A stretch of 64,000 nt of DNA from an uncultured Arthrobacter sp. (lineage in GTDB: Bacteria > Actinomycetota > Actinomycetes > Actinomycetales > Micrococcaceae), in contig NZ_CADCTE010000066.1 of the NCBI RefSeq assembly GCF_902805515.1, forward strand, positions 18,114-82,113. Reading direction: 5' to 3'. Positions 16,999-42,652 of the stretch are shown here, piece by piece (the first letter of the stretch is position 1; each line of letters opens with the position of its first letter). The position numbers were made by a program, and so were the translations under genes. The notes beneath the pieces were generated by a model. The model did not search any database. It was not told where the DNA came from and saw nothing but the letters and a program-made list of their open reading frames with translations.

Positions 16999-17007
16999 TT
17001 GTCCACA
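16999..17007 (+). promoter_or_regulatory. DnaA-box-type 9-mer upstream of the FHA-FtsK gene
   Basis: TTGTCCACA matches the actinobacterial TT(A/G)TCCACA consensus; candidate -10 TATCCT at 17046-17051. Function is inferred. Confidence 0.5.
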
Positions 17008-17082: not shown

Positions 17083-20000
17083 ATGCAGCTTCACCTTTCC
17101 GTGGTGGCGGGCCCCGGAGCCCCTGCCGCCACCGCGTCACACCTCCCCTGCGAGCTCGTTGTCAATCTCCAGCGGCCGATGTCCGGAGCGGACCTGGCCG
17201 GGCACCTCACCCTCCGCTTCGGGGACCTCTGCCTCTCGGTCGCGGGCATCCCCCTTGCCGCACTCGAACCGGGCGTCCCTCCCCTGGTCAACGGGGCCGT
17301 CCTCGTTGCCGGGAGCGGCCGTGCCGGTCCTGGGCCCTCGCCGGCACGTTCCGCCCTCATGCTTGTCGTGCACTCCGGACCGGATGCCGGGCTCATCTTC
17401 CCCTTAATGCGGGGTTCGTACTCGATCGGCCGGTCGGGCTGCGACATTTCGCTGCGCGATCCGGCGCTGTCCCGGCGCCACGCGGTGCTGGCTGTCGGAG
17501 AGGACCGCGTCCTGCTGCGCGATGCGGGCTCGGCGAACGGCACGTGGGTGGACGGGAACCGGATTACCGAGGCACCGATTTCTTCCTCCTCCTCGCTCGT
17601 TATGGGCGGCTCGCGGTGCGCCCTCGCCCTCACCGGAGCCTGCCGCCCGGAATTCCGCCCAGGGGACCTCGGGGAACCCCTGGACATCACCGCCGAGCCC
17701 GTGTCGGAGCGCGAGCGCTTCCTCACGCCGACGGTCCTGCTGCCGGTGGTGGGCGGGGCGGTCCTGGCGCTGGCCCTGAAGATGTGGCTCCTGCTCGCCT
17801 TCGCCGCGGTCGCCTCGCTGACCGGGTTGCTGTCGATCTGGGCCGTGCGTCGACGCCGGCGGCGGTTCGAGGCCGCCGTCCGGAGCGCCGCCGGGGCCGA
17901 TGCGAAGCGACGCTGCGCGGCGGTGTTGGATGCCGGGTCGGTCGCCCTCCGGGCCTACGGGCGCGGCCCGGAAGACCGGTGGACCGACCCGGGCACGGCC
18001 TCCCCGTCCGCGGCAGATCAGACTTCCCGGACCGCGAATATCCGTTTGGGCGAGGCCGACCAGCAGGCGAACCTTCGACTTACCCGCCCGGGACCGGAAT
18101 GGACGCCGCCCATCCTCAAGCGGATGCCCGTGGTGCTCCCGTTCCGACCGGCGTCCGAACGCCCCTTCCGCGCCCGGATCCAGCTGCACGGCCCCCGGGA
18201 GGACGTGCTTGGCATGGGCCGGCTCATCCTGCTCCAGTTCTCAGCAGTACTCGGATCCGACGCGGGAGTGATCTGCCGCGGCCTGCCGTCCGAACTGCCC
18301 ACCGCGGCGCGGTTCCTGCCGGGGGTCCGCCTCGTGTCCACGCCCGCCGCGCTGGAGGCGGTGATCCGTGAAGGGCCCGGCCCGGTGCTGATTGAGTTTT
18401 CGGCGGCTCCCGGGCCCGTTCCGGCAGGCGAGTGGGCCGAGGCAATTACCATCTCGGTGCGGCCGGGCCGGGCCACCGTGGTCCGTGGCTCCGGCCGCCT
18501 CGGGTTCATTCCGGACCGTGTGGGTGCCCCGGCCTTCGAAGCCTCTGCCCGTGCCCTGGGTACAGCCTCGACCCGGACCCCACCGGGCGGGCGCCGGGTG
18601 CGGCCTCCCCCCTCATTCGAGGACGGGCTGCACCTTCCGGCTCCGCCTTCCGCTCGGGAACTGGGCGAGCAGTGGTGCGACGGCGCGGAAAAGGACAGCC
18701 TGGAAGCGCCGATTGGTGCTGCCCCGGGAGGTCCCCAGGTCTTCGATCTGGTCAGGCAGGGGCCCCACCTCCTGGTCGCCGGCACAACGGGGTCCGGAAA
18801 ATCACAGCTGCTGCGTTCCCTGGTCCTCGGCATCGCGGCCCGCTATCCACCCCCGCGGGTCAACTTCCTCCTCTTTGACTTCAAGGGAGGCTCGGGCCTC
18901 GGCCTGCTGAGCGGGCTGCCCCACTGCGTCGGGTTCCTGACGGACCTGTCGGCGGAGTCGGTGGAGCGCGCGCTCCGGTCGCTCCGGGCCGAGCTGCGCC
19001 GACGGGAGGAACTGTTCGCCGACCACTCCGTCCAGGACATCGCCGGGCTGTCGGCGTCGACGGCGGTGTCCCTCCCGCGGCTCGTGGTGGTGGTCGATGA
19101 ATTCCGCAGGCTGAGCGATGAAGTCCCAGGAGCCGCCGGGGACCTGATGAAGTGTGCGGCGCTGGGCCGGTCTCTCGGGGTCCATCTGGTCCTGGCGACC
19201 CAGCGGCCCACCGGCGCCGTCACTGCCGATCTCCGGACAAACATCACCGCGTCGATTGCACTTCGGGTCCAGAACGACATCGAATCCCTGGACCTCATCG
19301 GCTCGATCCAGGCCGCGGCCATCGCGGTGGGCCTGCCCGGTCGGGGCTTCCTGAAGGTCGGCTCCGGGGAGCCCAGGGAGTTCCAGGTGGCGTCGACGGC
19401 CGGGCCGCCCCCGGGACCGGGCCCCGTCCTGGAGCTGGCCGAGTGGCTTCAAGGAACGCGCACGGACGCGCCCGGTCCGGCGCCGGAGGAGGGTCCGGAC
19501 GCGGTTCGGGGGCTCGTTCAAAGGATCGCGGAAGCGGCCCTGGTGAGCCGCACCCCCGATCAGTACCGCCCGGTCCTCCCTCCGCTGCCGTCGGAGCTCC
19601 TTCCCGCGGGCCCCGGGGCGTCGGTGCCGGAGGCGCTCACCCTGGGACTGCTCGACCTTCCCGACCGGCAGGCCCAGCCTTTCCTGCGCTGGGCACCCGG
19701 CCGCTCCCACCTCGCCTTCATCGGTTCGGCCTCCTCCGGAGCAGCCGGAGCGCTCCGGCACACCCTCACGGAGTGCCTGCTGGTCCAGCCGGACACGCAC
19801 CTCTATATCCTCGATGGCGACTTCACGCTCGCCTCCGCCTCCGACGCACCCCAGACCGGAGCGTACGCCGCCGCCCACGAACCGGTCCGGGCGGAACGGA
19901 TCCTCTTCCGCCTCGCGGCAGTGGTCCTCGAACGGCTCTCGGCGCCCGCCGCACCCGGGACTCCCCCGATTCTCCTCGCGGTCTCGGGCTGGGGCCGGTG

Positions 20001-20985
20001 GGCGGGCACCTTCCGGTCCCGCCGGTTTTCCGCCGCCGAGGACCTGCTTCACGACATCGTCCGCGACGGTCCCGCCGCCGGGGTGTCGCTGGTGATCACC
20101 GGTGAAAGGGAGCTGACCGCTGCGCGCTTCGTCGGGCAGGTGCCGAACCGGGTCTACCTGCCCCTGGGAACGCCCCCGGAGGTGACCGCCGGCTGGCCCC
20201 GGCTGCCGGCGGTCGACCCGGTGCCGGGACGGGGAGTTGCCTTCGGTAGATTCGGCACGGCGCGGTTTGGCCCGGTCCTGCTCGACGACGGCGCCCCCGC
20301 CCAGCTGATCATTCGGCCGCGGGAGGGTGCAGCGGCGCCGCGGCCGCCGCGGCGGCGCCCCTTCCGGGTTGACCCGCTCCCGGTCCGCGTCCGGTCGACG
20401 GACCTCCAGGCGGCCACCGGAACCGGCGCGGCCTGCCGGATTCCCATCGGGGTCGGCGGCGACGAACTGGAGACTGTCTTCCTTGGGCTTGAAGCCGGGG
20501 GCCTCTGGGCCGCGGTGGGACCTCCGGCCTCGGGCAGATCGACCCTCCTGGCCCTGCTCGAGAACCAGGCCCCGGCCTGGCTGCACCGCCTGCGGCCCCG
20601 GGACGATCCGGCGGCTTACTGGCGGGCTTCAGGGAGCCGCCCTCCCCTGGTGACGGACCCGGCGCGGTGCCTGCTGCTGATCGACGACGCGGAGACCCTG
20701 CCCGACGCCCTCCACCCGATCCTTGAGGCATGCCTCGCGTCCGGCGCTCGGGCGGTGTTCACGGCGGGCCACCGGTTCCTGCTGACCCAGCGGCCACTCG
20801 CCCGGCTGGCCCGGGCTGCGGGCCGCGGAGTCGTCCTGGCACCGAGGTCCGAAACCGACGGCGAGGTCTTCGGGGTGCGGCTGGAGCCTTGGGACCGTGT
20901 CGGCCCACCCGGACGCGCGGTGGTGCTGGACTCGGGCCGGCAGCTGCCGGTGCAGCTTGCGCAGGGTCCCGAAGGCGGCCCATGA
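17083..20985 (+). CDS. FHA-domain FtsK/SpoIIIE ATPase, EssC/EccC-like architecture
   Basis: FHA (IGRSG..D.ALSRRHA..GSANGT), TM pair, ATPase 1 AGTTGSGKS/VVVVDEF, degenerate ATPase 2 (GSASSGAAG), ATPase 3 GPPASGRST/LLIDDAE. ATG 17083 with GGAG RBS preferred over 16846. Confidence 0.85.
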   Translation: MQLHLSVVAGPGAPAATASHLPCELVVNLQRPMSGADLAGHLTLRFGDLCLSVAGIPLAALEPGVPPLVNGAVLVAGSGRAGPGPSPARSALMLVVHSGPDAGLIFPLMRGSYSIGRSGCDISLRDPALSRRHAVLAVGEDRVLLRDAGSANGTWVDGNRITEAPISSSSSLVMGGSRCALALTGACRPEFRPGDLGEPLDITAEPVSERERFLTPTVLLPVVGGAVLALALKMWLLLAFAAVASLTGLLSIWAVRRRRRRFEAAVRSAAGADAKRRCAAVLDAGSVALRAYGRGPEDRWTDPGTASPSAADQTSRTANIRLGEADQQANLRLTRPGPEWTPPILKRMPVVLPFRPASERPFRARIQLHGPREDVLGMGRLILLQFSAVLGSDAGVICRGLPSELPTAARFLPGVRLVSTPAALEAVIREGPGPVLIEFSAAPGPVPAGEWAEAITISVRPGRATVVRGSGRLGFIPDRVGAPAFEASARALGTASTRTPPGGRRVRPPPSFEDGLHLPAPPSARELGEQWCDGAEKDSLEAPIGAAPGGPQVFDLVRQGPHLLVAGTTGSGKSQLLRSLVLGIAARYPPPRVNFLLFDFKGGSGLGLLSGLPHCVGFLTDLSAESVERALRSLRAELRRREELFADHSVQDIAGLSASTAVSLPRLVVVVDEFRRLSDEVPGAAGDLMKCAALGRSLGVHLVLATQRPTGAVTADLRTNITASIALRVQNDIESLDLIGSIQAAAIAVGLPGRGFLKVGSGEPREFQVASTAGPPPGPGPVLELAEWLQGTRTDAPGPAPEEGPDAVRGLVQRIAEAALVSRTPDQYRPVLPPLPSELLPAGPGASVPEALTLGLLDLPDRQAQPFLRWAPGRSHLAFIGSASSGAAGALRHTLTECLLVQPDTHLYILDGDFTLASASDAPQTGAYAAAHEPVRAERILFRLAAVVLERLSAPAAPGTPPILLAVSGWGRWAGTFRSRRFSAAEDLLHDIVRDGPAAGVSLVITGERELTAARFVGQVPNRVYLPLGTPPEVTAGWPRLPAVDPVPGRGVAFGRFGTARFGPVLLDDGAPAQLIIRPREGAAAPRPPRRRPFRVDPLPVRVRSTDLQAATGTGAACRIPIGVGGDELETVFLGLEAGGLWAAVGPPASGRSTLLALLENQAPAWLHRLRPRDDPAAYWRASGSRPPLVTDPARCLLLIDDAETLPDALHPILEACLASGARAVFTAGHRFLLTQRPLARLARAAGRGVVLAPRSETDGEVFGVRLEPWDRVGPPGRAVVLDSGRQLPVQLAQGPEGGP

Positions 20986-28409: not shown

Positions 28410-29753
28410 TTACCTTGGAAGCCTAACGGGCATCCACGAAAACTTCACTTCGTTGGAGCTCCATCCAATGCGGCGGCGTTGGCGTTGTTCAACCGTCACA
28501 TCGGCGAGTCCCGCAATCGCCCTCCGCAGGGCCGAGGACGGGGCAGTTTCGACGAGCGCCGAGCCCGCCAGCAGCGCCTCGTCCGCCGCCGGAAAATCGG
28601 CAGGGAGGAAGGCCGAAATGGCCGCGCCGGGCCCGAACCGCTCCCAGGCCTCCCTCAGCTGGTCCTCCGGCGAGCGCCCGACGGAACCGGCGCGGACCTT
28701 GTTGAGCACCACCCTCGGCTCGGCCGAGGGCACCGCCTCGGCCAGGACGGCCAGCGAACGCACGAGGCGCGGTACGCCGACGGCGTCGGCGGCACCGACC
28801 GCGATAACGGAGTCGGCCAGTTCAAGGCAGCGCAGTGCCGCGCCGTTGCGGCGGGGAGCGGCGGTGTCGAAGCTGAGCTCCTCGTCCGCTTCGAGGCAGA
28901 ACCCGCAGTCGACGATGGTCACGGCGGCGCATGCACGGGCGTACTCGAGGACCCGGGCCAGGGCCGCGGGACGCACCTCGGGCCACCGGTCGGGCCGCGT
29001 CAGGCCGGTGAGGACTCCCAGCCTGCCGCCGCCCACGGCGACGGTTGAGGCCACCCGGCGGAGCCCGTCCGGGTCGAGCGTCCCCTGGTCTGCGAGCCGG
29101 CAGGCCTGGGCAAGTCCGGCGGCCTCATCGAGCAGACCCAGGAACGCCGCCACACTGGCCCCGTAGGTGTCGGCATCGACAAGCAGGACGGTGGAGCCGG
29201 CCGCCGCCAGCTCCGCCGCCATATTCACGGCCACCGTGGTCCGCCCCGGGGCCCCGATCGGCCCCCACACCGCGGTGACGGTGCCGCCGCCGGGTTCGCC
29301 GGGTTCGCCGGCGGGCGGCTCGGCGGTTTGCCCGGGGGGCGGCAGGGAAGCGGCCGGGTCGGCGTAGGCGCTGGTGCCCAGACTTCCTGCGGCGCCGGAC
29401 AGGCTTTCGACGGCCGCCGTGACGAGTTCGGCCAGCGCGTCCGGCGCGATGCCGGGAGGCGCACGGCGTACCCCGGGCGCCACGACCCCCGCGGCCGGTT
29501 CGTCCTCTCCCGCGAGCACCACGACGGCGATCCCGGTGTCGCGCAGCCGCTCCAGGAGCGACACCGTCAGCGCTCCGGTTCCGGGTGAGAGGATGGCCGC
29601 GCGGGCCAGTCCCGCCTGGCCGGCTGCCAGCAGTTCGGGCACCCCCTCGCAGCGGCGCACCACGGTCACCGGGCCGTGGAGTTCCTCCAGCCCGGTAACG
29701 TACTCCCCCGCGGCCGGTCCCACGGTGACGACGGGGATGACCGGGCCGCTCAC
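28410..29753 (-). CDS. CpaE/TadZ-like MinD/ParA-family ATPase with pseudo-receiver N-terminus
   Basis: Deviant P-loop WGPIGAPGRTT, VLLVDADTYG, IVDCGF; receiver-like N-terminal region without an obvious phospho-Asp; coupled to the SAF gene. Confidence 0.75.
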   Translation of the reverse strand: MSGPVIPVVTVGPAAGEYVTGLEELHGPVTVVRRCEGVPELLAAGQAGLARAAILSPGTGALTVSLLERLRDTGIAVVVLAGEDEPAAGVVAPGVRRAPPGIAPDALAELVTAAVESLSGAAGSLGTSAYADPAASLPPPGQTAEPPAGEPGEPGGGTVTAVWGPIGAPGRTTVAVNMAAELAAAGSTVLLVDADTYGASVAAFLGLLDEAAGLAQACRLADQGTLDPDGLRRVASTVAVGGGRLGVLTGLTRPDRWPEVRPAALARVLEYARACAAVTIVDCGFCLEADEELSFDTAAPRRNGAALRCLELADSVIAVGAADAVGVPRLVRSLAVLAEAVPSAEPRVVLNKVRAGSVGRSPEDQLREAWERFGPGAAISAFLPADFPAADEALLAGSALVETAPSSALRRAIAGLADVTVEQRQRRRIGWSSNEVKFSWMPVRLPR

Positions 29754-30418
29754 GGACTCCCCCGCGGGTTCAGCACCACGGCGATCTTCGCACCGTTCGA
29801 CAGGGCGTTCAGCAGGGCAGGCATTGCCTCGTCGGCCACCAGCACGTAGACCCGGGACGGGGATTCCGTTCCCAGGGCCGATTCGTTGACCGCGATCTCG
29901 GAGACCTCGGCGCCCTCAAGCAGGAGCCGGGGCTGCTCGAACCGGGTGCCCTGCCCGGTGGCCGCCTCCGGCAGGGCGACCCAGACATCGACCCGCACCC
30001 CGGGCTCCGTGCCCGCGGGGAGGGGGTCCTCGATGGGAAGCCCGACCGGTTTCCTGTCCAGTTCGTCGGGGCGGCCGACGGCGGCGGCCGGAACCAGTTC
30101 GCCCGGGCGGACGAGCCGGGTTACCACCGCGTTCTTTGGAAGGCCGGAGGAGGCCCGAAGGTACTTCTCCTCCGAGCCTCCCAGCCGGACGGCGACCGTG
30201 GTGAGGTCACCTGACTCCAGGCGGGTGCCGACGGGAAGTTCGGTACGGGCAGCGAGGACATCGGTGGTGCGGTCGAGGCTGCCGACCAGCGCCGTAACCC
30301 CTGCGGTGGAGGCCAGCACGAGCAGGAGACCGATGATGAGCCGTGGATCCCGCCAGGACGGCCTGCCGATCCGCGGCGCGGTGGCGTGACCGTCCGTCCG
30401 GCTGGCGTTACCGCTCAT
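29750..30418 (-). CDS. Membrane-anchored SAF-domain protein (CpaB/RcpC-like)
   Basis: RDPRLIIGLLLV TM, VLAARTELPVGTRLESGDL SAF motif, GVRVDVWV RcpC-like C-terminus; ATG 30418 with GGAGG RBS. Confidence 0.75.
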   Translation of the reverse strand: MSGNASRTDGHATAPRIGRPSWRDPRLIIGLLLVLASTAGVTALVGSLDRTTDVLAARTELPVGTRLESGDLTTVAVRLGGSEEKYLRASSGLPKNAVVTRLVRPGELVPAAAVGRPDELDRKPVGLPIEDPLPAGTEPGVRVDVWVALPEAATGQGTRFEQPRLLLEGAEVSEIAVNESALGTESPSRVYVLVADEAMPALLNALSNGAKIAVVLNPRGSP

Positions 30419-30538
30419 GGAGCTTCCTCCGCACGCTTCGGAGCACTCTTCGGCACCGGCGGATGGGCACCGGCGCTCCTGCCATTGTTGTGCAGGCGGC
30501 ACACAAAATAAACAGAAGGTTTCCGGCTCGCCCGAATC

Positions 30539-30547
30539 TGTGGACAA
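30539..30547 (-). promoter_or_regulatory. DnaA-box-type 9-mer in the divergent SAF / HTH promoter region
   Basis: + strand TGTGGACAA = TTGTCCACA on the SAF coding strand. Function is inferred. Confidence 0.5.
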
Positions 30548-30661
30548 CCGGCACCTCCGGGGCCGTGGAGTGACAGAATTGAGGCAGGTCCAGCCGGGTG
30601 CCCACGGTTGGAACGGAGGCGCTCGTGGAGGCAAGGCCACGGCTGAGGAAGAGGTGTTCGT

Positions 30662-30889
30662 GTGGCTGAGAAGCGGTTCCTGACCCTCGCCGACGTTGCG
30701 GAGGTGCTCAATATCAGCTCCTCCCAGACCTACGCCCTGGTTCGCTCGGGGGAGCTTCCGGCGATCCAGGTGGGCGGGCGCGGTCAGTGGCGCGTCGAGG
30801 CACGGGTCCTCGAGGACTACATCGCCGATGCCTACCGGAGATCCGCAGCCGCCCTGCGCGGAAGCGCCGACCCGGTCAACAACGCCTGA
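30662..30889 (+). CDS. Stand-alone HTH_17 / excisionase-like (BldC-like) DNA-binding protein
   Basis: FLTLADVAEVLNISSSQTYALVRSGELPAIQVGGRGQWRV, 75 aa; no integrase nearby. Confidence 0.85.
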   Translation: MAEKRFLTLADVAEVLNISSSQTYALVRSGELPAIQVGGRGQWRVEARVLEDYIADAYRRSAAALRGSADPVNNA

Positions 30890-37002: not shown

Positions 37003-37746
37003 TCACTGGGTTGCAGCGGCTTCCTTCGCCCGGTACGCCAGGAGCTCCTCCTGGGGGTCCTGCGTCCCTTCGGCGCACTTCGAATCGAGGGTGATGACTC
37101 CGTAGGTCCAGCCCTGGCGCCGGTAGACGACCGAGGGGGCACCGGTGGCAGAGTCGACGAAGAGGTAGAAGTCGTGGCCGACCAGTTCCATGTTGTCGAC
37201 GGCGTCATCGAGGGTGATCGGCTCTCCGGAGAAGACCTTCCGCCGGATGAGGACCGGTGAGTCCCCTGCCGGGACATCGTCCGGCGACTCGTAGGGATCA
37301 GTCGAGGCGGCGGGCGCCGTCGTTCCAGCCGTCGTTCCATTGGCGGAATCGTCCGCCAGCGCGGCGTAGATCGGCTGGGAGGTGCTGACGGGTTCGAGCC
37401 CGGCGGTGGCAGCGCCGACCGCGACGGGTGTGTGCCGTCCGTGGTGGACCTTGCGGCGGTCCCGCGCCCGGCGGAGGCGTTCGAGGAGTTTGTTGTAGGC
37501 GAGGTCGAAGGCGGCGAACTTGTCGCCGGCCGTGGCCTCGGCCCGGATGACCGGGCCCTTGCACAGTACCGTCAGTTCGACGGTGAGGGCCGTGTCGGCG
37601 TCCCTGGCACTTGTTTCCTTGGTGATCTTGGCATCCACCCGCTGGACCTTATCGCCGAGCTGTTCGATCTTGTCGACCTTCTCTGCGGCGTACTCGCGGA
37701 ACCGGTCCGATACTGCAAGGTTCCGGCCGTTAATCACAAATTCCAT
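37003..37746 (-). CDS. hpf: Ribosome hibernation promoting factor (long HPF/RaiA)
   Basis: MEFVINGRNLAVSDRFREYA, DKFAAFDLA, LIRRK...MELVGHDFYLF, VVYRRQGWTYGVI; ATG 37746. Confidence 0.93.
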   Translation of the reverse strand: MEFVINGRNLAVSDRFREYAAEKVDKIEQLGDKVQRVDAKITKETSARDADTALTVELTVLCKGPVIRAEATAGDKFAAFDLAYNKLLERLRRARDRRKVHHGRHTPVAVGAATAGLEPVSTSQPIYAALADDSANGTTAGTTAPAASTDPYESPDDVPAGDSPVLIRRKVFSGEPITLDDAVDNMELVGHDFYLFVDSATGAPSVVYRRQGWTYGVITLDSKCAEGTQDPQEELLAYRAKEAAATQ

Positions 37747-37870
37747 GGTGCCCTCCAAATCGCTAAGGTGACACAACAGCGGCCGGTCAGGCTGCCCCGG
37801 TCCGCTGCCGATGGGTGCTTGTCTGCTTTCTAACACCCATACCTCACGGTAGATCACGGCACCCCGTAAT

Positions 37871-38827
37871 TCATCCCTCCCCGCGCCGATTTCTCCGGAA
37901 TTCGCTGTAAGCCAACTCGGCTCCGGACGGCGGTGGCGTGGCCGCCAGGACGACGGCACCGGCCACCGCCGCGCCCTCGGCCCGCAGCGCCCTGACGACC
38001 TCCGCGAGGGTCGCTCCGGTGGTCAGGACGTCGTCCACGACGAGGCACTGCACCCCCTCCAGGCGGCCGCGGTACCGCCGCCGAACCCGCATCGACCCGG
38101 CGACGTTTTCCTGCCGGCCGCGCCGCCCCAGCCCCTTCTGCCCGCCCCGCCGCGCCGAGGGAAACCACGGGATGCCGGCGGGCCGTCCGCCCGCACGCAC
38201 CCCCGGATGCCGGTGCCCCACGGGCCGTGCAAGCCGGGACCCGGCAGGGAGCTCACCGCGGCGGCGGAGTCCGTCCAGCAGCAGGCCCAACGGGTCGTAG
38301 CCGCGCCGGCGCAGGGACCGGCCGCGGGTGGGGACGGGCACCAGCAGGCAGGGACCCGCCGGCAGGTCCGAGCATGCGGCGAGCAGGGCACCGCCGAGGG
38401 CCGCCGCGAGGGGGCGGGCCAGGTCGGTGTGGCCGGCATTCTTGAACGCCAGCAGGGCCCGGGCGACCACTCCCCGGTAGATTCCCGCGGCGACCACCGG
38501 CAGCGGCTCAAAGCCGCCTCCGGCATCGTCATCGCCCGGAGCGCCGGTGCCGCTTCCCGGTCCGTCGGGATCGCGCAGCGGGAGGGAACCGGCTCCGGCT
38601 TCGGCCCGGAAGGGACGCACCGTGGCCCGCCGGAGGGTCCGGCGGCACGGCCGACACAGGGAGGTGTCATGGCGGCCGCATCCCACGCAGGAGGTCGGCA
38701 GGATCAGTGCCCAGAAACCCCGAAGGGCGCGGCCGGCCGCGGCCGGGACGCCACCGCCCCTGCTGCAGTCGATGCCGCCGCCGGGCACCGCGCCGGCTTC
38801 CGGGAGTACGCGGACCGGGTGAGCCAT
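37871..38827 (-). CDS. comF: ComF family phosphoribosyltransferase-like protein
   Basis: CVGC..LCRPC Zn motif, LVPVP..RRRGYD, CLVVDDVLTTGATL; conserved lpqB-comF-hpf order. Confidence 0.88.
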   Translation of the reverse strand: MAHPVRVLPEAGAVPGGGIDCSRGGGVPAAAGRALRGFWALILPTSCVGCGRHDTSLCRPCRRTLRRATVRPFRAEAGAGSLPLRDPDGPGSGTGAPGDDDAGGGFEPLPVVAAGIYRGVVARALLAFKNAGHTDLARPLAAALGGALLAACSDLPAGPCLLVPVPTRGRSLRRRGYDPLGLLLDGLRRRGELPAGSRLARPVGHRHPGVRAGGRPAGIPWFPSARRGGQKGLGRRGRQENVAGSMRVRRRYRGRLEGVQCLVVDDVLTTGATLAEVVRALRAEGAAVAGAVVLAATPPPSGAELAYSEFRRNRRGEG

Positions 38828-38876
38828 GCCTTAAGGGTGCCGCGGAGGCTGGGGATGCCGGGGCACCGGCGTGCGG

Positions 38877-38965
38877 TGTGGATAAGGGGCGGTGTGGATA
38901 AGGGGCTGTGTGGATAAGGGGCTGTGGGGATAAGGGCTGTGTGGATAAGGGTGCAGTGTGGAACC
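38877..38965 (-). repeat. Tandem array of DnaA-box 9-mers (about 16-bp period)
   Basis: + strand TGTGGATAA at 38877, 38893, 38909, 38940; TGGGGATAA at 38925; TGTGGAACC at 38957. Reads TTATCCACA on the comF strand. Confidence 0.85.
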
Positions 38966-39078: not shown

Positions 39079-40809
39079 TCAGCCGGGGAAGGCCGGGTCC
39101 CGTACCCCTTCGACGCTGCGGATCCAGCTCAGTCCCACCCTGGCAAAGAGCGCCTCCGCGGTCTGAATGTAGAAGTCTTCCTGCGGATCGCTTCCGGCGC
39201 TGATGTTCAGCACACCCTTGTGCGGCTTAAGGGCCTCGGTCTCCCCGCTGAGCTGGACGATCAGGGGCGTCACCTCGGCCGTCTCCGAGACCGGGGAGGC
39301 GACGATGGTGCTCTCCCCCGCCCACTTGGCGGTGCCGATGTCCGCGCCCGCGTTGAGGGCAATCGGGGTCCCCAGGCTCTGCGGAATGCCCTGGGCGCTG
39401 CGCGTGATGCCGGCGAGCAGCACCTCGGAGGCCCCGGCCTCATCGACGACGAGGAGGGCGCGGGCGCCGTCCCGGGAGATCTGGAGCTCCCTGACCGTGC
39501 GGTCTGCGAGCCACGACGCGGAGACGACGACCGCATTGCGCGTCACCCCGCCCGGAGGCACCGCGACCACCTCGGTGCCGCGGCCGCTCGGGCCGCCCTC
39601 CACGCTGCGTGCGGTCCACACCCAGTTGCTGGTGTCGAAGCTGGGGGCGGTGAGACCGGTGCCTTCGACGGCGGTGCGGACCTCGCTGCCCGGGGCGGTG
39701 GCCAGCAGCGCCGTGGACCGGCCGTTCAGGAACGCGAAGTTGCTCCCCTCGAGGGACCGCGCCGGGTCCTTCGGGCTGTAGTCGGCCACCGAGGGCAGCC
39801 CCTCGACCGGGAGCACATCGAGGTTCCGTACGGTGCGCACCTCATTGTCCGCGATGACCACCTGCTCATTGCCCACCGGGGGGTTGAAGTCTGGAATCAC
39901 GAGGGCCGGGTCGGGGCTGCCGAGGTCGATCGGCTGGCCGGCGCTCATCTCCACGGAGGTGACGTCGTTGAGCGTGGTGAGGTTCACCCGCAGCTGCTGC
40001 TCCATCTGCTGGAGACGGAGGTCCGTAGCGTCCTGAAGGACGTCGGCGGACAGTTCGACGGAGGCCACCCCTGAGGCGATCGGCACCGATTCCTGTGCGA
40101 GGGTGACCCCCTCGGGGAAGGCGCTGGTGACAGCACCCTGGAGGTAGGGGGCGGGGCCGGCGAGCAGGGCCTGCACCACCCGGGCGGCGATGCCGGGGCG
40201 GCGGACGAACCAGCGGACGTCGGGCACCCAGTACCGGTAGCCGCTGCTGTAGAAGTAGAGGTGGTGCGCGGTGGCCAGCAGGGAGGCGTTGCTTTCGGTG
40301 ACCATGATCCCGTTGGGGATTTCACTGATGCGCCACTGCCCGTTGACCTTCACCATTTCGGCGCGGACGCTTTCGGTGGTCGGAGTCGGCGGGTCGGTGC
40401 GGATGCCCCGGGCGTCAATGATTCCGGTGATCTCGAGCTGCACCTGCAGCGCGCCCTCGGCCTCGCGCTGGATGATCCTCGGGTCGGCCCGGAAGATTAC
40501 GATCCGTTCCTCGGGCTGCCACGTCCGGGCCAGCTCCGGGGTCAGGAATTCCCGGGCCACCTTGTACCCGTCGGCGGCGCCGGTGCCCGCCGTGATGAAC
40601 TCCTGGAGGAGCACCTCGGGCGGCGCGCCCGGCTGCGGGCCTTCGGGTGAGAAGACCTGGGACACGGTGTCCTCCTCGACCGCGGGCGCGGGAATGGTGG
40701 CCACCGGTCCGCTCCGGGGAATGGAGGAGCAGCCGGAGAGGATCAGGAGCAAGGCAACGACCGCGGCGATGAAGGAGCCCCGCGTTCCGGCGGGCCTACT
40801 GGATTTCAC
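39079..40809 (-). CDS. lpqB: Lipoprotein LpqB (GerMN and beta-propeller domains)
   Basis: Lipobox LSGC, SSIPRSGPV, WVPDVRWF, ISRDGARAL; downstream of mtrB. Confidence 0.92.
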   Translation of the reverse strand: MKSSRPAGTRGSFIAAVVALLLILSGCSSIPRSGPVATIPAPAVEEDTVSQVFSPEGPQPGAPPEVLLQEFITAGTGAADGYKVAREFLTPELARTWQPEERIVIFRADPRIIQREAEGALQVQLEITGIIDARGIRTDPPTPTTESVRAEMVKVNGQWRISEIPNGIMVTESNASLLATAHHLYFYSSGYRYWVPDVRWFVRRPGIAARVVQALLAGPAPYLQGAVTSAFPEGVTLAQESVPIASGVASVELSADVLQDATDLRLQQMEQQLRVNLTTLNDVTSVEMSAGQPIDLGSPDPALVIPDFNPPVGNEQVVIADNEVRTVRNLDVLPVEGLPSVADYSPKDPARSLEGSNFAFLNGRSTALLATAPGSEVRTAVEGTGLTAPSFDTSNWVWTARSVEGGPSGRGTEVVAVPPGGVTRNAVVVSASWLADRTVRELQISRDGARALLVVDEAGASEVLLAGITRSAQGIPQSLGTPIALNAGADIGTAKWAGESTIVASPVSETAEVTPLIVQLSGETEALKPHKGVLNISAGSDPQEDFYIQTAEALFARVGLSWIRSVEGVRDPAFPG

Positions 40810-42652
40810 TTTTCTCCTTCAGCTGCGGGTCGGGGGTGCCGGCCCCGGCCGCGGGCCGGACGTCGGTAGGCACAGCGCCCGAAGGTCCGGCGGGCGGGAC
40901 GTCGGTGGGCGGGGCGTCGGTAGGCACAGTGCCCGAAGGACCGGCGGACGGCACATCGGCGGGCGGGGCGTCGGCGGGTGCGGCGCCCGATGGCCCTGCG
41001 GCGAGCGGCAGCGGCAGCCGGTCGCGCGGCGGCAGGGGCAGCGGGGAGACTTTCAACTCGCCGCCGCGCTGCTTGGGCAGGGTAAGCCGGAAGCAGGATC
41101 CGTTACCCGGCTCGCCCCATGCCTGGAGCCAGGCCGAGTGCAGGCGTGCGTCTTCGACGGCGATGGACAGCCCCAGCCCGCTTCCGCCCGTGGTGCGGGC
41201 GCGGGCGGGGTCCGCCCGCCAGAAGCGGTCAAAGACCCTCGAGGCCTCATCCTCGCTCATACCGATGCCGTAGTCGCGCACCGCGACGGCGACCGCGTCG
41301 GGGTTCGAGGCGATATAGATGTGGACGGGTTTCCCCTTGCCGTGCTCGAGCGCATTGACGACCAGATTGCGCAGGATCCGCCCGATCCGGCGGGGGTCGG
41401 CGTCGACGATGCAGCTGCTCTCGGACGAGACGATGCGCAGGTCCGAGCCGAAGTTGTCGGCCAGCGGCTGGGCCCCGTCGACGACGTGCTTCACCACCTG
41501 GAAGAGGTCGGTGGGCTCGGACTCAAGCACCGCCGCGCCGGCGTCGAAGCGGGAAATTTCGAGGAGGTCAGCCAGCAGTGACTGGAACCGTTCCACCTGG
41601 TCGTAGAGAATTTCCGCGGACCGCTTGTTCACGGGGTCGAAGTCGGTCCGCGCCTCGTGGAGCACCTCGGCGGCCATCCGGACCGTCGTCAACGGGGTCC
41701 GCAGTTCGTGGGAGACGTCCGAGACGAACCGCTGCTGCATCTGGGACAGCTGCGCCAGCTGGGTGATCTGGTCCTGGAGGCTGGTGGCCATGTGGTTGAA
41801 GGACGCACCGAGCCGGGCGACCTCATCCTCGCCGCGGACCTCCATCCGCTCCTGCAGCTCGCCGGCGGCCAGCTTCTCCGAGACGAGGGCGGCATGGCTG
41901 ACGGGCCGGACGACGCTGCGTGTCACGAACCAGGCGATCGCCCCGATGATCCCCAGCAGCACCGTCCCGGCGATCCACAGCACGCGGTGGATGTAGTCGA
42001 GGGTCAGCTGCATGGAGGAGAGGTCGTAGATGATGTAGACGGCGTAGGTGGTGCTGTCCGGGGGCAGGGTGACCTTGGTGGCGAAGGCGACCCCCGGCGC
42101 CTGCAGGCCGCCGGTCGCTTCTGAGCGGGGAATCGTGATCGGGGCCCAGTACTGGTCCTCGCCCTCCGCGACGGCGGCGCTGAGCTCGGGCGGGATGAGT
42201 GCGGACTCCGTCATCGCCTTATGGCTGGCCAGGGCCGGAACCCAGTAGCCCTGCTGGCCGGGCAGCGGGCTGAGCAGCCACTGCCGAGGGGCGTCGGCGC
42301 CGGGGGCCCCGAGCCGGTCGAGGGTGTCACGGGCCAGCCGGTCCGTCGAGTCCCGGTCGGCGGCCGTGGTGTCCCTAAAGATTTCCTTGATCTCGCCCAG
42401 GCCGTAGCTCGCCTCGCCCTGGAACTGCCCGAACCGCTCCTTGTACAGGCCGTTGGCGATCTGGTTGGACAGGAAGCCCCCCACCGCCACGAGGGCGAGG
42501 GAGGTCAGCAGCAGCGTCGCGACGACCGTGCGGAACTGCAGGGAACGGCGCCAGCGGCCGGCGATGAAGGACGCCGCCCGGCGGGCCTGCCGCAGCCCCC
42601 GTCCGGCGCCCTGGATCGCCGCTTCGACGGCGCGGGCTGCCCGGGTGTTCAC
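40796..42652 (-). CDS. mtrB: Sensor histidine kinase MtrB
   Basis: WRRSLQFR, two TM helices, HAMP, FVSDVSHELRTPLTT, FDRFWRADPARARTTGGSGLGL; Pro-rich repeat tail. Confidence 0.95.
   Translation of the reverse strand: MNTRAARAVEAAIQGAGRGLRQARRAASFIAGRWRRSLQFRTVVATLLLTSLALVAVGGFLSNQIANGLYKERFGQFQGEASYGLGEIKEIFRDTTAADRDSTDRLARDTLDRLGAPGADAPRQWLLSPLPGQQGYWVPALASHKAMTESALIPPELSAAVAEGEDQYWAPITIPRSEATGGLQAPGVAFATKVTLPPDSTTYAVYIIYDLSSMQLTLDYIHRVLWIAGTVLLGIIGAIAWFVTRSVVRPVSHAALVSEKLAAGELQERMEVRGEDEVARLGASFNHMATSLQDQITQLAQLSQMQQRFVSDVSHELRTPLTTVRMAAEVLHEARTDFDPVNKRSAEILYDQVERFQSLLADLLEISRFDAGAAVLESEPTDLFQVVKHVVDGAQPLADNFGSDLRIVSSESSCIVDADPRRIGRILRNLVVNALEHGKGKPVHIYIASNPDAVAVAVRDYGIGMSEDEASRVFDRFWRADPARARTTGGSGLGLSIAVEDARLHSAWLQAWGEPGNGSCFRLTLPKQRGGELKVSPLPLPPRDRLPLPLAAGPSGAAPADAPPADVPSAGPSGTVPTDAPPTDVPPAGPSGAVPTDVRPAAGAGTPDPQLKEKSEIQ
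40861..41000 (-). repeat. About three imperfect 54-bp (18-aa) tandem repeats in the MtrB C-terminal tail
   Basis: CGTCGG(T/C)(A/G)GG anchors at 40861, 40915, 40969; peptide AGPSG(A/T)(A/V)P(A/T)D(A/V).. Confidence 0.8.

What the first reader, a model, noticed from the sequence alone, without database searches (positions are those of the whole stretch)
38828..38965. Non-origin tandem array of DnaA boxes immediately upstream of comF and downstream of mtrAB-lpqB
Seen: four perfect TTATCCACA boxes, one 1-mismatch and one 2-mismatch box, all co-oriented at 15-17 bp spacing, starting 50 bp upstream of the comF ATG. A candidate leaderless promoter (CACCCT-N6-ATG) puts the first box at about -54. There is no dnaA/dnaN or AT-rich unwinding element here. 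Established: TTATCCACA is the DnaA consensus; non-origin clusters (datA, DARS, Bacillus and Streptomyces box clusters) titrate or recycle DnaA; MtrA interacts with oriC/dnaA in mycobacteria. Inference: either a DnaA-titration locus or DnaA-dependent control that couples a DNA-uptake gene to the replication cycle. The tandem form suggests recent expansion of a single box and possibly tunable copy number.
Basis: partly seen in the sequence, partly recalled or inferred. Interest (0 to 1): 0.82.

Follow-up and report, generated by a model that had tools for sequence, protein, structure and literature searches.

The report
Amplified competence-promoter box upstream of comF
The tandem "DnaA boxes" in front of comF are real. 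They are a recent expansion of one conserved promoter box that also sits at the same distance in front of the other DNA-uptake and DNA-processing genes, which exposes a competence-type regulon in Actinobacteria that I did not find described in the paper library.

Summary
Window 38876-38962 is a 16-bp tandem repeat (5.4 units). On the gene strand it carries four perfect TTATCCACA boxes, one box with one mismatch and one decayed copy, between lpqB and a ComF-family gene.

It is not a conserved box cluster. Twenty-five of 28 congeners compared have one box at this place, two close relatives have three, and this genome has six. The array is therefore a recent slippage expansion.

The single ancestral box is strongly conserved (T4, C6, C8 and A9 invariant). 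It ends 49-52 nt before the comF start codon, upstream of a -10-like hexamer placed as in a leaderless promoter.

In this genome the same arrangement (box, 37-39 nt, YAnnnT, 5-6 nt, start codon) precedes comEA-comEC, yraN-comM-dprA, the Tad-pilus ssd-tadA operon and an AbiEi/DUF559-like gene. Related boxes precede an FHA-FtsK gene and the SAF/CpaE-HTH_17 locus that controls competence genes in Micrococcus luteus.

The arrangement occurs in 179 of 301 genomes of the order and 159 of 301 of the class, against almost no hits for the control pattern.

The protein that reads the box is unresolved: DnaA about 45%, the conserved HTH_17 protein about 25%, another factor about 20%. A DnaA-titration role is unlikely. 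Coupling of competence genes to DnaA remains possible.

The parts
38876..38962 (-). 16-bp tandem repeat array. The unit is CCCCTTATCCACACAG on the gene strand, 5.4 copies, and it holds the boxes.
   Evidence: TRF score 137; sequence.
38877..38885 (-). Box 1, TTATCCACA, promoter-proximal. It spans -58 to -50 (centre -54) if the A of the ATG is +1. This is the ancestral copy, conserved in position.
   Evidence: the same position in all 28 congeners, with box end to start codon 49-52 nt.
38893..38901 (-). Box 2, TTATCCACA (centre about -70). Extra copy.
38909..38917 (-). Box 3, TTATCCACA (centre about -86). Extra copy.
   Evidence: Also present in an independent contig of run X1.
38925..38933 (-). 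Box 4, TTATCCCCA, one mismatch (centre about -102).
38940..38948 (-). Box 5, TTATCCACA (centre about -117).
38957..38965 (-). Box 6, GGTTCCACA, the decayed distal copy (centre about -134).
   Evidence: It is homologous to the decayed distal copies in G045.
38850..38858 (-). Weak second box-like site, GCATCCCCA (centre about -27). It lies 27 bp downstream of box 1, at the offset of the proximal site in the two-box modules of other families. It is conserved only in the close clade.
   Evidence: Two-box modules elsewhere are seen.
38834..38839 (-). -10-like hexamer CACCCT, followed by 6 nt and the ATG. This is the inferred leaderless core promoter of comF.
   Evidence: conserved TGnYAnnnT-N6-ATG/GTG in most congeners. 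The ssd promoter in the same genome has an identical CACCCT-N6-ATG. No transcript data exist.
37871..38827 (-). ComF-family gene (double zinc ribbon plus phosphoribosyltransferase domain).
   Evidence: Pfam and NCBIfam. Orthologues were found in 52 of 52 congeners.
39079..40809 (-). lpqB, the last gene of mtrA-mtrB-lpqB. It ends 113 bp upstream of the array.
16999..17007 (+). Single TTGTCCACA, 38 nt upstream of TATCCT, in front of the FHA-FtsK/SpoIIIE gene (17083-20985). The box-to-hexamer distance matches comF, but the transcript has a leader.
   Evidence: The Walker A motif GTTGSGKS matches that reported for M. luteus Mlut_07490 (PMC8467076).
30539..30547 (-). Single TTGTCCACA in the intergenic region between the SAF/CpaB-CpaE-like operon (28410-30418, -) and the HTH_17 gene (30662-30889, +).
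   Evidence: A box in this intergenic region is conserved across families.

Best explanation
The array is a recent tandem amplification, by replication slippage of a 16-17-bp unit, of one conserved promoter box. In the ancestral state a single asymmetric 9-mer, TT(A/G)TCCACA, points toward the gene and is centred about 54-56 bp upstream of a -35-less, probably leaderless comF promoter. The same arrangement of box, spacing and hexamer marks the other DNA-uptake and DNA-processing operons of this genome: comEA-comEC, yraN-comM-dprA and the Tad-pilus ssd-tadA operon. It also marks related genes in other Actinomycetes, including recA. The box is therefore the operator of a competence-type regulon.

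I infer that a sequence-specific DNA-binding protein sits on the box and contacts RNA polymerase from a fixed face and distance, most likely as an activator. Only the promoter-proximal copy of the array keeps that register. The five extra copies are additional binding sites on alternating helical faces. At most they raise local occupancy or sensitivity, and they are probably close to neutral.

Shown here: the anatomy, the copy-number history, the shared architecture and its conservation.
For: Copy-number history. G008 and G012 have 1 box, G019 has 3 (17-bp unit), G045 has 3 (1 perfect and 2 decayed), the window has 6, and 23 more distant congeners have 1.

Conservation of the single box. Across 28 congeners T4, C6, C8 and A9 are invariant and the distance from box end to start codon is 49-52 nt.

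Shared architecture within the genome. The distance from box end to start codon is 49-50 nt, with YAnnnT-N5/6-ATG/GTG, at comF, ssd (TIGR03815) followed by a TadA-like ATPase, yraN followed by comM and dprA, comEA followed by comEC, and an AbiEi_4/REase gene. The strict pattern gives 5 hits in this genome, 0 for the reversed control, and about 0.08 expected by my own estimate.

Other genera. G228 carries the architecture at comEA, comF, recA and the same AbiEi/DUF559-like family. G105 carries it at comEA and at four AbiEi/DUF559-like genes.

Breadth. The pattern hits 179 of 301 genomes of the order and 159 of 301 of the class, with about 9 and about 17 control hits in total. Families with no strict hit still carry two degenerate GTCCACAG boxes upstream of yraN.

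Link to experiment. The box-bearing SAF/CpaE-HTH_17 and FtsK-like loci are the ones where mutations change comEA-EC promoter activity and transformation in M. luteus (PMC8467076).

Decay of distal copies. In G045 only the proximal copy is intact.
Against: There are no transcript data for this organism or a close relative, so the start site, the leaderless status and the direction of regulation are all inferred. In one subclade of the genus the hexamer lacks the usual A at its second position. comF could also be read through from lpqB, because no terminator was found. The exact copy number rests on one metagenome assembly. That the extra copies are neutral is an argument from non-conservation, not a measurement. 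That recurrence could equally mean amplification is sometimes selected.
Confidence: 0.8

Rival explanations
1. The reader is DnaA. The replication initiator binds the -55 box and couples competence, recombination and Tad-pilus genes to replication status. The array simply multiplies high-affinity DnaA sites in front of comF. This is the first reader's second option, and it is compatible with the best explanation.
For: The box is the exact DnaA consensus. Across 28 congeners the tolerated variation is at positions 1-3 and 5, while T4, C6, C8 and A9 are invariant. By my recollection of the E. coli consensus TT(A/T)TNCACA, that is where DnaA boxes also vary. In the same genome, perfect boxes otherwise cluster next to dnaA and dnaN, upstream of dnaA, upstream of a dnaB-like helicase gene, and in a conserved cluster 14 kb from dnaA. 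The architecture is class-wide, as DnaA is. It persists at yraN and at DUF559-like genes in family f6/g32, where no homologue of the HTH_17 candidate is detectable. tblastn finds no second protein with a DnaA domain IV. From my own knowledge, DnaA-mediated transcriptional responses to replication stress are established in B. subtilis.
Against: In the Arthrobacter group the regulon boxes carry T at position 10 (24 of 25, mostly TAG), whereas origin-type boxes of the same genomes carry G there and T in only 2 of 14 (Fisher p = 3e-7). DnaA reading a 9-mer does not predict that contrast. Strict spacing and orientation are more typical of a dedicated activator. The M. luteus mutant screen recovered HTH_17, SAF and FtsK-like loci, and the paper does not mention dnaA (0 occurrences). 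I found no paper linking DnaA boxes to competence genes in Actinobacteria.
Confidence: 0.45
2. The reader is the small conserved HTH_17 protein (window 30662-30889, counterpart of M. luteus Mlut_14660). It would be an autoregulated competence regulator whose 9-bp asymmetric site happens to coincide with the DnaA box.
For: In M. luteus, missense and 5'-UTR mutations in Mlut_14660 raise comEA-EC promoter activity, and the adjacent SAF gene is needed for transformation (PMC8467076). The protein is 60-84% identical across most families of the order. Its own promoter carries the box in most families, either direct at about -55 or inverted at about -45. G150 shows the full architecture ending at the gene's ATG. 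HTH_17 (BldC-type) monomers read asymmetric 9-bp sites, with an AT-rich part followed by a major-groove part (PMC5859096). A dedicated factor would explain the lineage-specific TAG flank.
Against: Family f6/g32 has no detectable homologue, yet it keeps the box architecture at yraN and at DUF559-like genes. The protein is not close to BldC (no PDB match at E <= 0.01), so its DNA specificity is unknown. A box in its promoter is equally expected if it is merely a member of the regulon.
Confidence: 0.25
3. The array is a DnaA-titration or DnaA-inactivation locus, analogous to datA, DARS or the Bacillus and Streptomyces box clusters, and it has been selected for its effect on replication initiation.
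For: Four perfect high-affinity boxes make up 4 of the 13 TTATCCACA, and 4 of the 29 TTRTCCACA, in the genome. If DnaA binds them as expected, some sequestration is physically unavoidable.
Against: The multi-box state is confined to a shallow clade (6, 3 and 3 copies). It is absent from the other 25 congeners compared, and distal copies decay in G045. The conserved feature is one box at a fixed promoter position. The family already has a conserved, larger cluster of boxes in both orientations near dnaA: C144:68729-69124 in this genome, and at least 12 boxes at 17.3-18.1 kb in G228. No accessory features of datA or DARS could be tested.
Confidence: 0.05
4. The extra copies are a selectively neutral minisatellite (VNTR). 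Only box 1 matters, and the expansion has no regulatory or replication consequence.
For: Copy number varies among close relatives (1, 1, 3, 3, 6). The 16-bp period puts successive boxes on opposite helical faces and out of the conserved register. Distal copies decay.
Against: Four of six copies are still perfect. Extra high-affinity sites next to a regulated promoter often change its response.
Confidence: 0.4
5. The boxes are MtrA sites, so that the upstream mtrAB-lpqB system controls comF.
For: The only support is gene adjacency and a superficial likeness between GTCCACA and GTCACA-type half-sites.
Against: The published MtrA motif is a direct repeat of GTnAC-type half-sites with a period of about 11 bp (PMC6265350). 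The conserved state here is a single 9-mer with one extra base in the core, and the array period is 16 bp. The same box occurs at many loci unlinked to mtrA.
Confidence: 0.02

Closest known systems
DnaA boxes acting as operators of DnaA-regulated promoters (dnaA autoregulation; the B. subtilis DnaA regulon that responds to replication stress)
   Same: The 9-mer is the identical consensus. It lies in promoter regions of DNA-metabolism genes, and boxes are also present at dnaA and dnaB-like promoters of the same genome.
   Different: Here one box sits at a strictly fixed distance and orientation upstream of -35-less, probably leaderless promoters. The target set is DNA uptake and processing. In the Arthrobacter group the 3' flank differs from origin-type boxes. 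DnaA binding is untested.
Non-origin DnaA-box clusters (E. coli datA and DARS, B. subtilis DnaA-box clusters, Streptomyces box clusters)
   Same: Several co-located consensus boxes away from the origin.
   Different: The cluster state here is not conserved and arose by recent tandem duplication of a promoter element. There is no evidence for accessory sites or an origin-related position.
Competence-regulon promoter elements (streptococcal cin-box read by sigma X, CRP-S sites with Sxy/TfoX, ComK boxes of Bacillus)
   Same: One short motif at a fixed promoter position marks comEA/EC, comF, dprA, comM, recA and pilus genes across species.
   Different: I found no paper describing such an element for Actinobacteria.
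Micrococcus luteus Mlut_14660 (HTH_17) / Mlut_14650 (SAF, RcpC/CpaB-like) / Mlut_14640 (CpaE) locus and FtsK-like Mlut_07490 (PMC8467076)
   Same: The window holds the same module (28410-30889) and an FHA-FtsK gene with the same Walker A motif. Both carry the box. In M. luteus these loci control comEA-EC promoter activity and transformation.
   Different: The paper defines no cis element and does not mention DnaA. Orthology here rests on domain content, gene order and one motif, not on a tree.
BldC-type HTH_17 regulators that bind direct repeats (PMC5859096)
   Same: Small monomeric winged-HTH proteins that read asymmetric 9-bp units arranged head to tail. Tandem direct boxes would suit them.
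   Different: BldC units are AATTxxxxC at 9-bp period, whereas the array period is 16 bp and the core is GC-rich. The window's protein is not a close BldC relative.
PafBC-dependent (RecA-NDp) promoters of Actinobacteria, with a -26 element TGTCRGTG-N8-TAnnnT (from my own knowledge of the mycobacterial literature)
   Same: In some lineages the -55 box sits upstream of promoters with exactly this -26 element: recA in G228, G068 and G084, and multi-copy DUF222/13E12-like genes in G177.
   Different: The comF, comEA, yraN and ssd promoters of this genome lack the -26 element. The box is a separate upstream module.

Membership tests
DnaA-titration / inactivation locus (datA, DARS, DnaA-box clusters) | Cluster of several consensus DnaA boxes outside oriC | tested here: met
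   Four perfect boxes and one 1-mismatch box within 72 bp.
DnaA-titration / inactivation locus (datA, DARS, DnaA-box clusters) | The clustered state is conserved among related genomes | tested here: not met
   One box in 25 of 28 congeners and three in two close relatives. Distal copies are decayed in G045.
DnaA-titration / inactivation locus (datA, DARS, DnaA-box clusters) | DnaA binding, and an effect on initiation frequency or DnaA nucleotide state | not testable with these tools
   Needs ChIP or EMSA, and ori:ter measurements.
oriC | Boxes in both orientations next to dnaA/dnaN, with an AT-rich unwinding element | tested here: not met
   All boxes are co-oriented. The intergenic region is 74% G+C. 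dnaA lies on another contig, C144.
DnaA-regulated promoter (DnaA as transcription factor) | Consensus DnaA box conserved in the promoter region | tested here: met
   Alignment of 28 congeners.
DnaA-regulated promoter (DnaA as transcription factor) | The boxes are indistinguishable from the organism's origin-type boxes | tested here: not met
   In the Arthrobacter group, position 10 is T in 24 of 25 regulon boxes but in only 2 of 14 origin-type boxes (p = 3e-7). In most other lineages both classes read CACAG.
DnaA-regulated promoter (DnaA as transcription factor) | DnaA occupancy and DnaA-dependent expression | not testable with these tools
   No ChIP or expression data exist. No RNA runs were found for this organism.
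Competence regulon cis-element (cin-box / CRP-S / ComK-box type) | The same motif lies upstream of several DNA-uptake and DNA-processing operons in one genome | tested here: met
   comF, comEA-comEC, yraN-comM-dprA and ssd-tadA, plus the FHA-FtsK gene and the SAF/CpaE locus.
Competence regulon cis-element (cin-box / CRP-S / ComK-box type) | Fixed position relative to the core promoter | tested here: met
   Box end to start codon is 49-50 nt in five operons of G000 and 49-52 nt in 28 congeners at comF.
Competence regulon cis-element (cin-box / CRP-S / ComK-box type) | Conserved across genera in front of orthologous genes | tested here: met
   G228 and G105. yraN in families f13, f15, f20, f23 and f6. 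Order-wide and class-wide scans.
Competence regulon cis-element (cin-box / CRP-S / ComK-box type) | An identified regulator, and induction under competence conditions | not testable with these tools
   The candidates are DnaA and HTH_17. The only experimental link is the M. luteus genetics (PMC8467076).
Tandem repeat of slippage type (VNTR) | Head-to-tail near-identical units whose copy number differs among close relatives | tested here: met
   TRF finds 5.4 copies at 90% matches. Relatives carry 1, 1, 3 and 3 copies against 6 here.
Tandem repeat of slippage type (VNTR) | Copy-number variation within the population or sample | tested here: inconclusive
   Contigs from the independent assembly break inside the array at low depth. 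No raw reads were available.
MtrA operator | Direct repeat of GTnAC-type half-sites at a period of about 11 bp | tested here: not met
   The conserved state is a single 9-mer and the array period is 16 bp. The motif is taken from PMC6265350.

The most novel reading that the evidence does not exclude
Two proteins read the same 9-mer. On this reading DnaA and a small, highly conserved HTH_17 protein, which could not be deleted in M. luteus, compete for TTRTCCACA sites at the competence, recA and Tad promoters and at the origin-type clusters. Replication initiation and DNA uptake and recombination would then be reciprocally wired in Actinomycetes, and tandem amplification of the box, as seen here at comF, would be a fast evolutionary way to shift that balance at single promoters.
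Probability: 0.12. Interest if true: 0.9.

Novelty: new variant of a known kind. Interest (0 to 1): 0.72.

Why it matters
How natural competence is switched on in Actinobacteria is an open question. The M. luteus papers say so explicitly, and they define no cis element. This finding gives a concrete and testable handle: a 9-bp box at a fixed position in front of comEA-EC, comF, yraN-comM-dprA, Tad-pilus genes and, in relatives, recA, conserved across the class. If it is the HTH_17 protein, a new regulator family for competence is defined. The array itself is a natural allelic series of 1, 3 and 6 operators that could be used to measure how operator number tunes such a promoter.

Tried and rejected
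- **Origin or second origin at this site.** Rejected. All boxes are co-oriented, the spacer is 74% G+C, and dnaA and dnaN lie on another contig.
- **MtrA operator.** Rejected on motif and period.
- **PafBC -26 element in the comF promoter.** Absent. It is present only at other box-bearing promoters, such as recA and the 13E12-like genes.
tblastn finds none.
- **Canonical sigma-70 promoter or intrinsic terminator between lpqB and comF.** None found. Folding of the lpqB-proximal spacer is not unusual (z = -0.98).
- **Phyletic test of the HTH_17 candidate using the strict pattern.** Misleading at first. Families with no strict hit still have degenerate two-box modules, so the strict pattern under-counts. 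The informative case was family f6/g32, which lacks the protein but keeps the boxes.
- **Structural relatives of the HTH_17 protein.** No PDB sequence match.
- **Raw-read check of copy number.** Only assembled contigs of metagenome runs were available, and they break in the array. No RNA runs exist, so the transcription start could not be mapped.
- **Literature.** Searches for the motif together with competence, leaderless promoters or Actinobacteria found nothing relevant.
- **The search for related loci in genome contigs.** It returned only one true relative (Arthrobacter zhaoguopingii), which served mainly to name the genus.
- **Two strict-pattern hits in G157 (L093, L094).** No open frame follows them, so they are chance matches.
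Full report
**1. The observation**

The array is real. Between lpqB (39079-40809, minus strand) and a ComF-family gene (37871-38827, minus strand) lies a 16-bp tandem repeat at 38876-38962, with 5.4 units, 90% matches and TRF score 137.

Read on the gene strand it holds six boxes:
- perfect TTATCCACA at 38877, 38893, 38909 and 38940;
- TTATCCCCA (one mismatch) at 38925;
- a decayed GGTTCCACA at 38957.

Pfam and NCBIfam confirm the gene order mtrA-mtrB-lpqB-[array]-comF-hpf-alkZ-like-secA.

The whole 3.74-Mb, 68% G+C genome is a 207-contig metagenome-assembled genome of the genus Arthrobacter. It has only 13 perfect TTATCCACA, four of them here.

An independent assembly of the best-matching biocrust run breaks within the array but reproduces copies 3-6 exactly. 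The repeat is therefore not an artefact, although the exact copy number rests on one assembly.

**2. History of the array**

The intergenic region aligns with four close relatives:

| Genome | Copies at this site |
|---|---|
| G008 | 1 |
| G012 (A. zhaoguopingii) | 1 |
| G019 | 3, with a 17-bp unit |
| G045 (closest; ComF 95% identical) | 3, but only the promoter-proximal copy intact |
| Window genome | 6 |

A further 23 congeners, with ComF about 55-60% identical, have exactly one box. The decay of distal copies in G045 suggests that selection holds only the proximal copy.

**3. What the single box is**

In an alignment of 28 congeners the box is the only strongly conserved upstream element.
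- T4, C6, C8 and A9 are invariant.
- Position 3 is A or G in 26 of 28 (one T, one C), and position 5 is C in 26 and G in 2.
- The box ends 49-52 nt before a conserved ATG/GTG.
- The start codon is preceded by TGnYAnnnT and then 5-6 nt, which is the layout of an extended -10 promoter that starts transcription at the start codon.
- Nothing resembling a -35 element is conserved.
- The box spans about -58 to -50.

**4. The box is shared by the competence genes**

I listed all 29 perfect TTRTCCACA sites in the genome. They fall into three groups:
- clusters at dnaA and dnaN, upstream of dnaA, upstream of a dnaB-like gene, and in one further cluster;
- five sites deep inside genes;
- about a dozen single boxes in promoter regions, co-oriented with the downstream gene.

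Five of the promoter boxes share the comF layout to the nucleotide, with 49-50 nt from box end to start codon and YAnnnT-N5/6-ATG/GTG. The genes behind them were identified:

| Promoter | Genes behind it |
|---|---|
| window, 38827 | comF |
| C123:4496 | ComEA, then ComEC |
| C136:23131 | YraN, then ComM, then DprA |
| C115:6779 | TIGR03815 Ssd/CpaE-like, then a TadA-type ATPase |
| C112 | an AbiEi_4/REase_MTES_1575 protein |

Two further boxes lie in the window itself. One precedes an FHA-FtsK/SpoIIIE gene, with the same box-to-hexamer distance but a leader. The other lies between a SAF/CpaB-CpaE-like operon and a divergent 75-aa HTH_17 gene.

The strict pattern TTRTCCACA-N36-40-YANNNT-N5-6-RTG gives 5 hits in this genome and none for the reversed control. 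My own estimate of the chance expectation is about 0.08.

**5. Link to experiment**

In Micrococcus luteus, EMS mutations that deregulate a comEA-EC promoter reporter cluster in Mlut_14660 (HTH_17; could not be deleted) and Mlut_14650 (SAF, RcpC/CpaB-like), which is followed by a CpaE gene. An FtsK/SpoIIIE-like gene, Mlut_07490, is also hit. Loss of the SAF gene lowers transformation about 10^4-fold (PMC8467076).

The window carries the same module, and its FHA-FtsK protein has the Walker A motif GTTGSGKS reported for Mlut_07490. None of the M. luteus papers consulted mentions DnaA, and I found no cis element for these promoters in them. My literature searches for the motif together with competence found nothing.

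**6. Breadth**

- In G228, a different genus of the same family, the architecture precedes comEA, comF, recA and the same AbiEi/DUF559-like family. The recA promoter has a short upstream ORF and a PafBC-type -26 element.
- In G105, a third genus, it precedes comEA and four AbiEi/DUF559-like genes.
- The strict pattern occurs in 179 of 301 genomes (73 of 100 genera) of the order and in 159 of 301 (77 of 151 genera) of the class. The control pattern gives about 9 and about 17 hits in total.
- Families with no strict hit still carry two direct degenerate boxes upstream of yraN (nnGTCCACAGG, then GTCCAC(C/A)G 17-26 bp downstream), so the strict pattern under-counts.
- In some lineages the box is combined with PafBC-type promoters of multi-copy DUF222/13E12-like genes.

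After I had reached the regulon, earlier notes of this scan turned out to describe the same regulon from other genomes, including a tandem expansion at yraN. They are unchecked AI notes and I do not count them as support.

**7. Who reads the box**

*For DnaA.*
- The match to the consensus is exact. Variation is tolerated at positions 1-3 and 5, while T4, C6, C8 and A9 are invariant.
- The distribution is class-wide.
- tblastn finds no second protein with a DnaA domain IV.
- The architecture persists at yraN and at DUF559-like genes in family f6/g32, where no homologue of the HTH_17 protein is detectable.

*Against DnaA.*
- In the Arthrobacter group, regulon boxes read CACAT(A)(G), with T at position 10 in 24 of 25. 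Origin-type boxes of the same genomes read CACAG, with T in only 2 of 14 (Fisher p = 3e-7).
- The strict spacing and orientation look like a dedicated activator.

*For the HTH_17 protein.*
- The M. luteus genetics point to it.
- It is 60-84% identical across the order.
- Its own promoter carries a box in most families, either direct at about -55 or inverted at about -45.
- BldC-type HTH_17 monomers read asymmetric 9-bp units (PMC5859096).

*Against the HTH_17 protein.*
- The f6/g32 case above.
- Its DNA specificity is unknown, and it has no PDB relative.

MtrA does not fit.

My estimate is DnaA 0.45, HTH_17 0.25 and another factor about 0.2. Whichever protein regulates, four perfect consensus boxes should be occupied by DnaA, so some competition or sequestration at this site is likely.

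**8. What the array does**

Only box 1 keeps the conserved register. The 16-bp period (about 1.5 helical turns) puts the other copies on alternating faces, centred at about -70, -86, -102, -117 and -134.

The most likely reading is an amplified operator.

A selected titration function is unlikely, for two reasons. The multi-box state is not conserved. The family also already has a conserved, larger cluster of boxes in both orientations about 14-17 kb from dnaA: C144:68729-69124 in this genome, and at least 12 boxes in G228.

**9. Verdict**

The interesting object is not a titration array. It is a conserved -55 box that defines a competence-type regulon in Actinomycetes that I did not find described in the paper library, and this array is a recent copy-number variant of it.

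Noticed in passing
G000 contig C144:68729-69124 (outside the window); G228:C1:17300-18100 (L075:2800-3600): A conserved cluster of DnaA boxes in both orientations lies between two convergent genes, about 14-17 kb from dnaA and past gyrA. It has 4 perfect boxes in this genome and at least 12 boxes with AT-rich stretches in G228. It is a candidate for the true origin or for a datA-like locus in this family.
   Followed up: partly
G000 contig C1:31673-31760 (outside the window): A run of co-oriented box-like sites (TTGTCCACA, TTTTCCACA, AGTCCACAGG, TAATCCACAGG) lies about 230 bp upstream of a dnaB-like replicative helicase gene.
   Followed up: no
G000 C112:24190-25054; L069 (G228); L048, L063, L067, L071 (G105); L090, L092 (G157); L091 (G080): Genes encoding an AbiEi_4 N-terminal HTH joined to a DUF559/REase_MTES_1575-like domain repeatedly carry the box architecture, often in several paralogues per genome. 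This holds even in a family without the HTH_17 protein. Their role in the regulon is unknown.
   Followed up: partly
L044 (G177:C1:93655-93717) and ten near-identical copies in G177; similar in G083, G104, G032, G227: Multi-copy DUF222/13E12-like genes carry the box about 55 bp upstream of a PafBC-type promoter (TGTCGGTG-N8-TAGGTT-N6-ATG). The -55 box is thus combined with a DNA-damage promoter type.
   Followed up: partly
L045 (G228:C1:1642652-1642713); also G068:C11:802118 and G084:C2:750759: In a neighbouring genus recA is preceded by the box, a TGTCAGGG-N8-TAGCGT element, and an 18-codon ORF starting at the predicted transcript start.
   Followed up: no
G080:C17:178178-178239: Three TTATCCACA boxes lie in tandem at a 12-bp period. 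This is another independent tandem amplification of the same box.
   Followed up: no
window 40851-41001: A 54-bp tandem repeat (2.8 copies, 81-87% matches) lies inside the 3' part of mtrB, close to the lpqB start. It is presumably a repeated low-complexity tail in the kinase.
   Followed up: no
window 37871-37959: The longest hpf ORF (37003-37959) overlaps the end of comF by 89 bp, but the Pfam match starts at residue 75. The true hpf start is probably downstream, which leaves open whether hpf is co-transcribed with comF.
   Followed up: no
window 30662-30889 and loci L100-L119: The 75-aa HTH_17 gene has a conserved (C/G)A(G/T)A(C/A)T hexamer six nucleotides before its ATG in many families, so it is probably leaderless. 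In the Arthrobacter group it instead has a leader of about 80 nt.
   Followed up: partly
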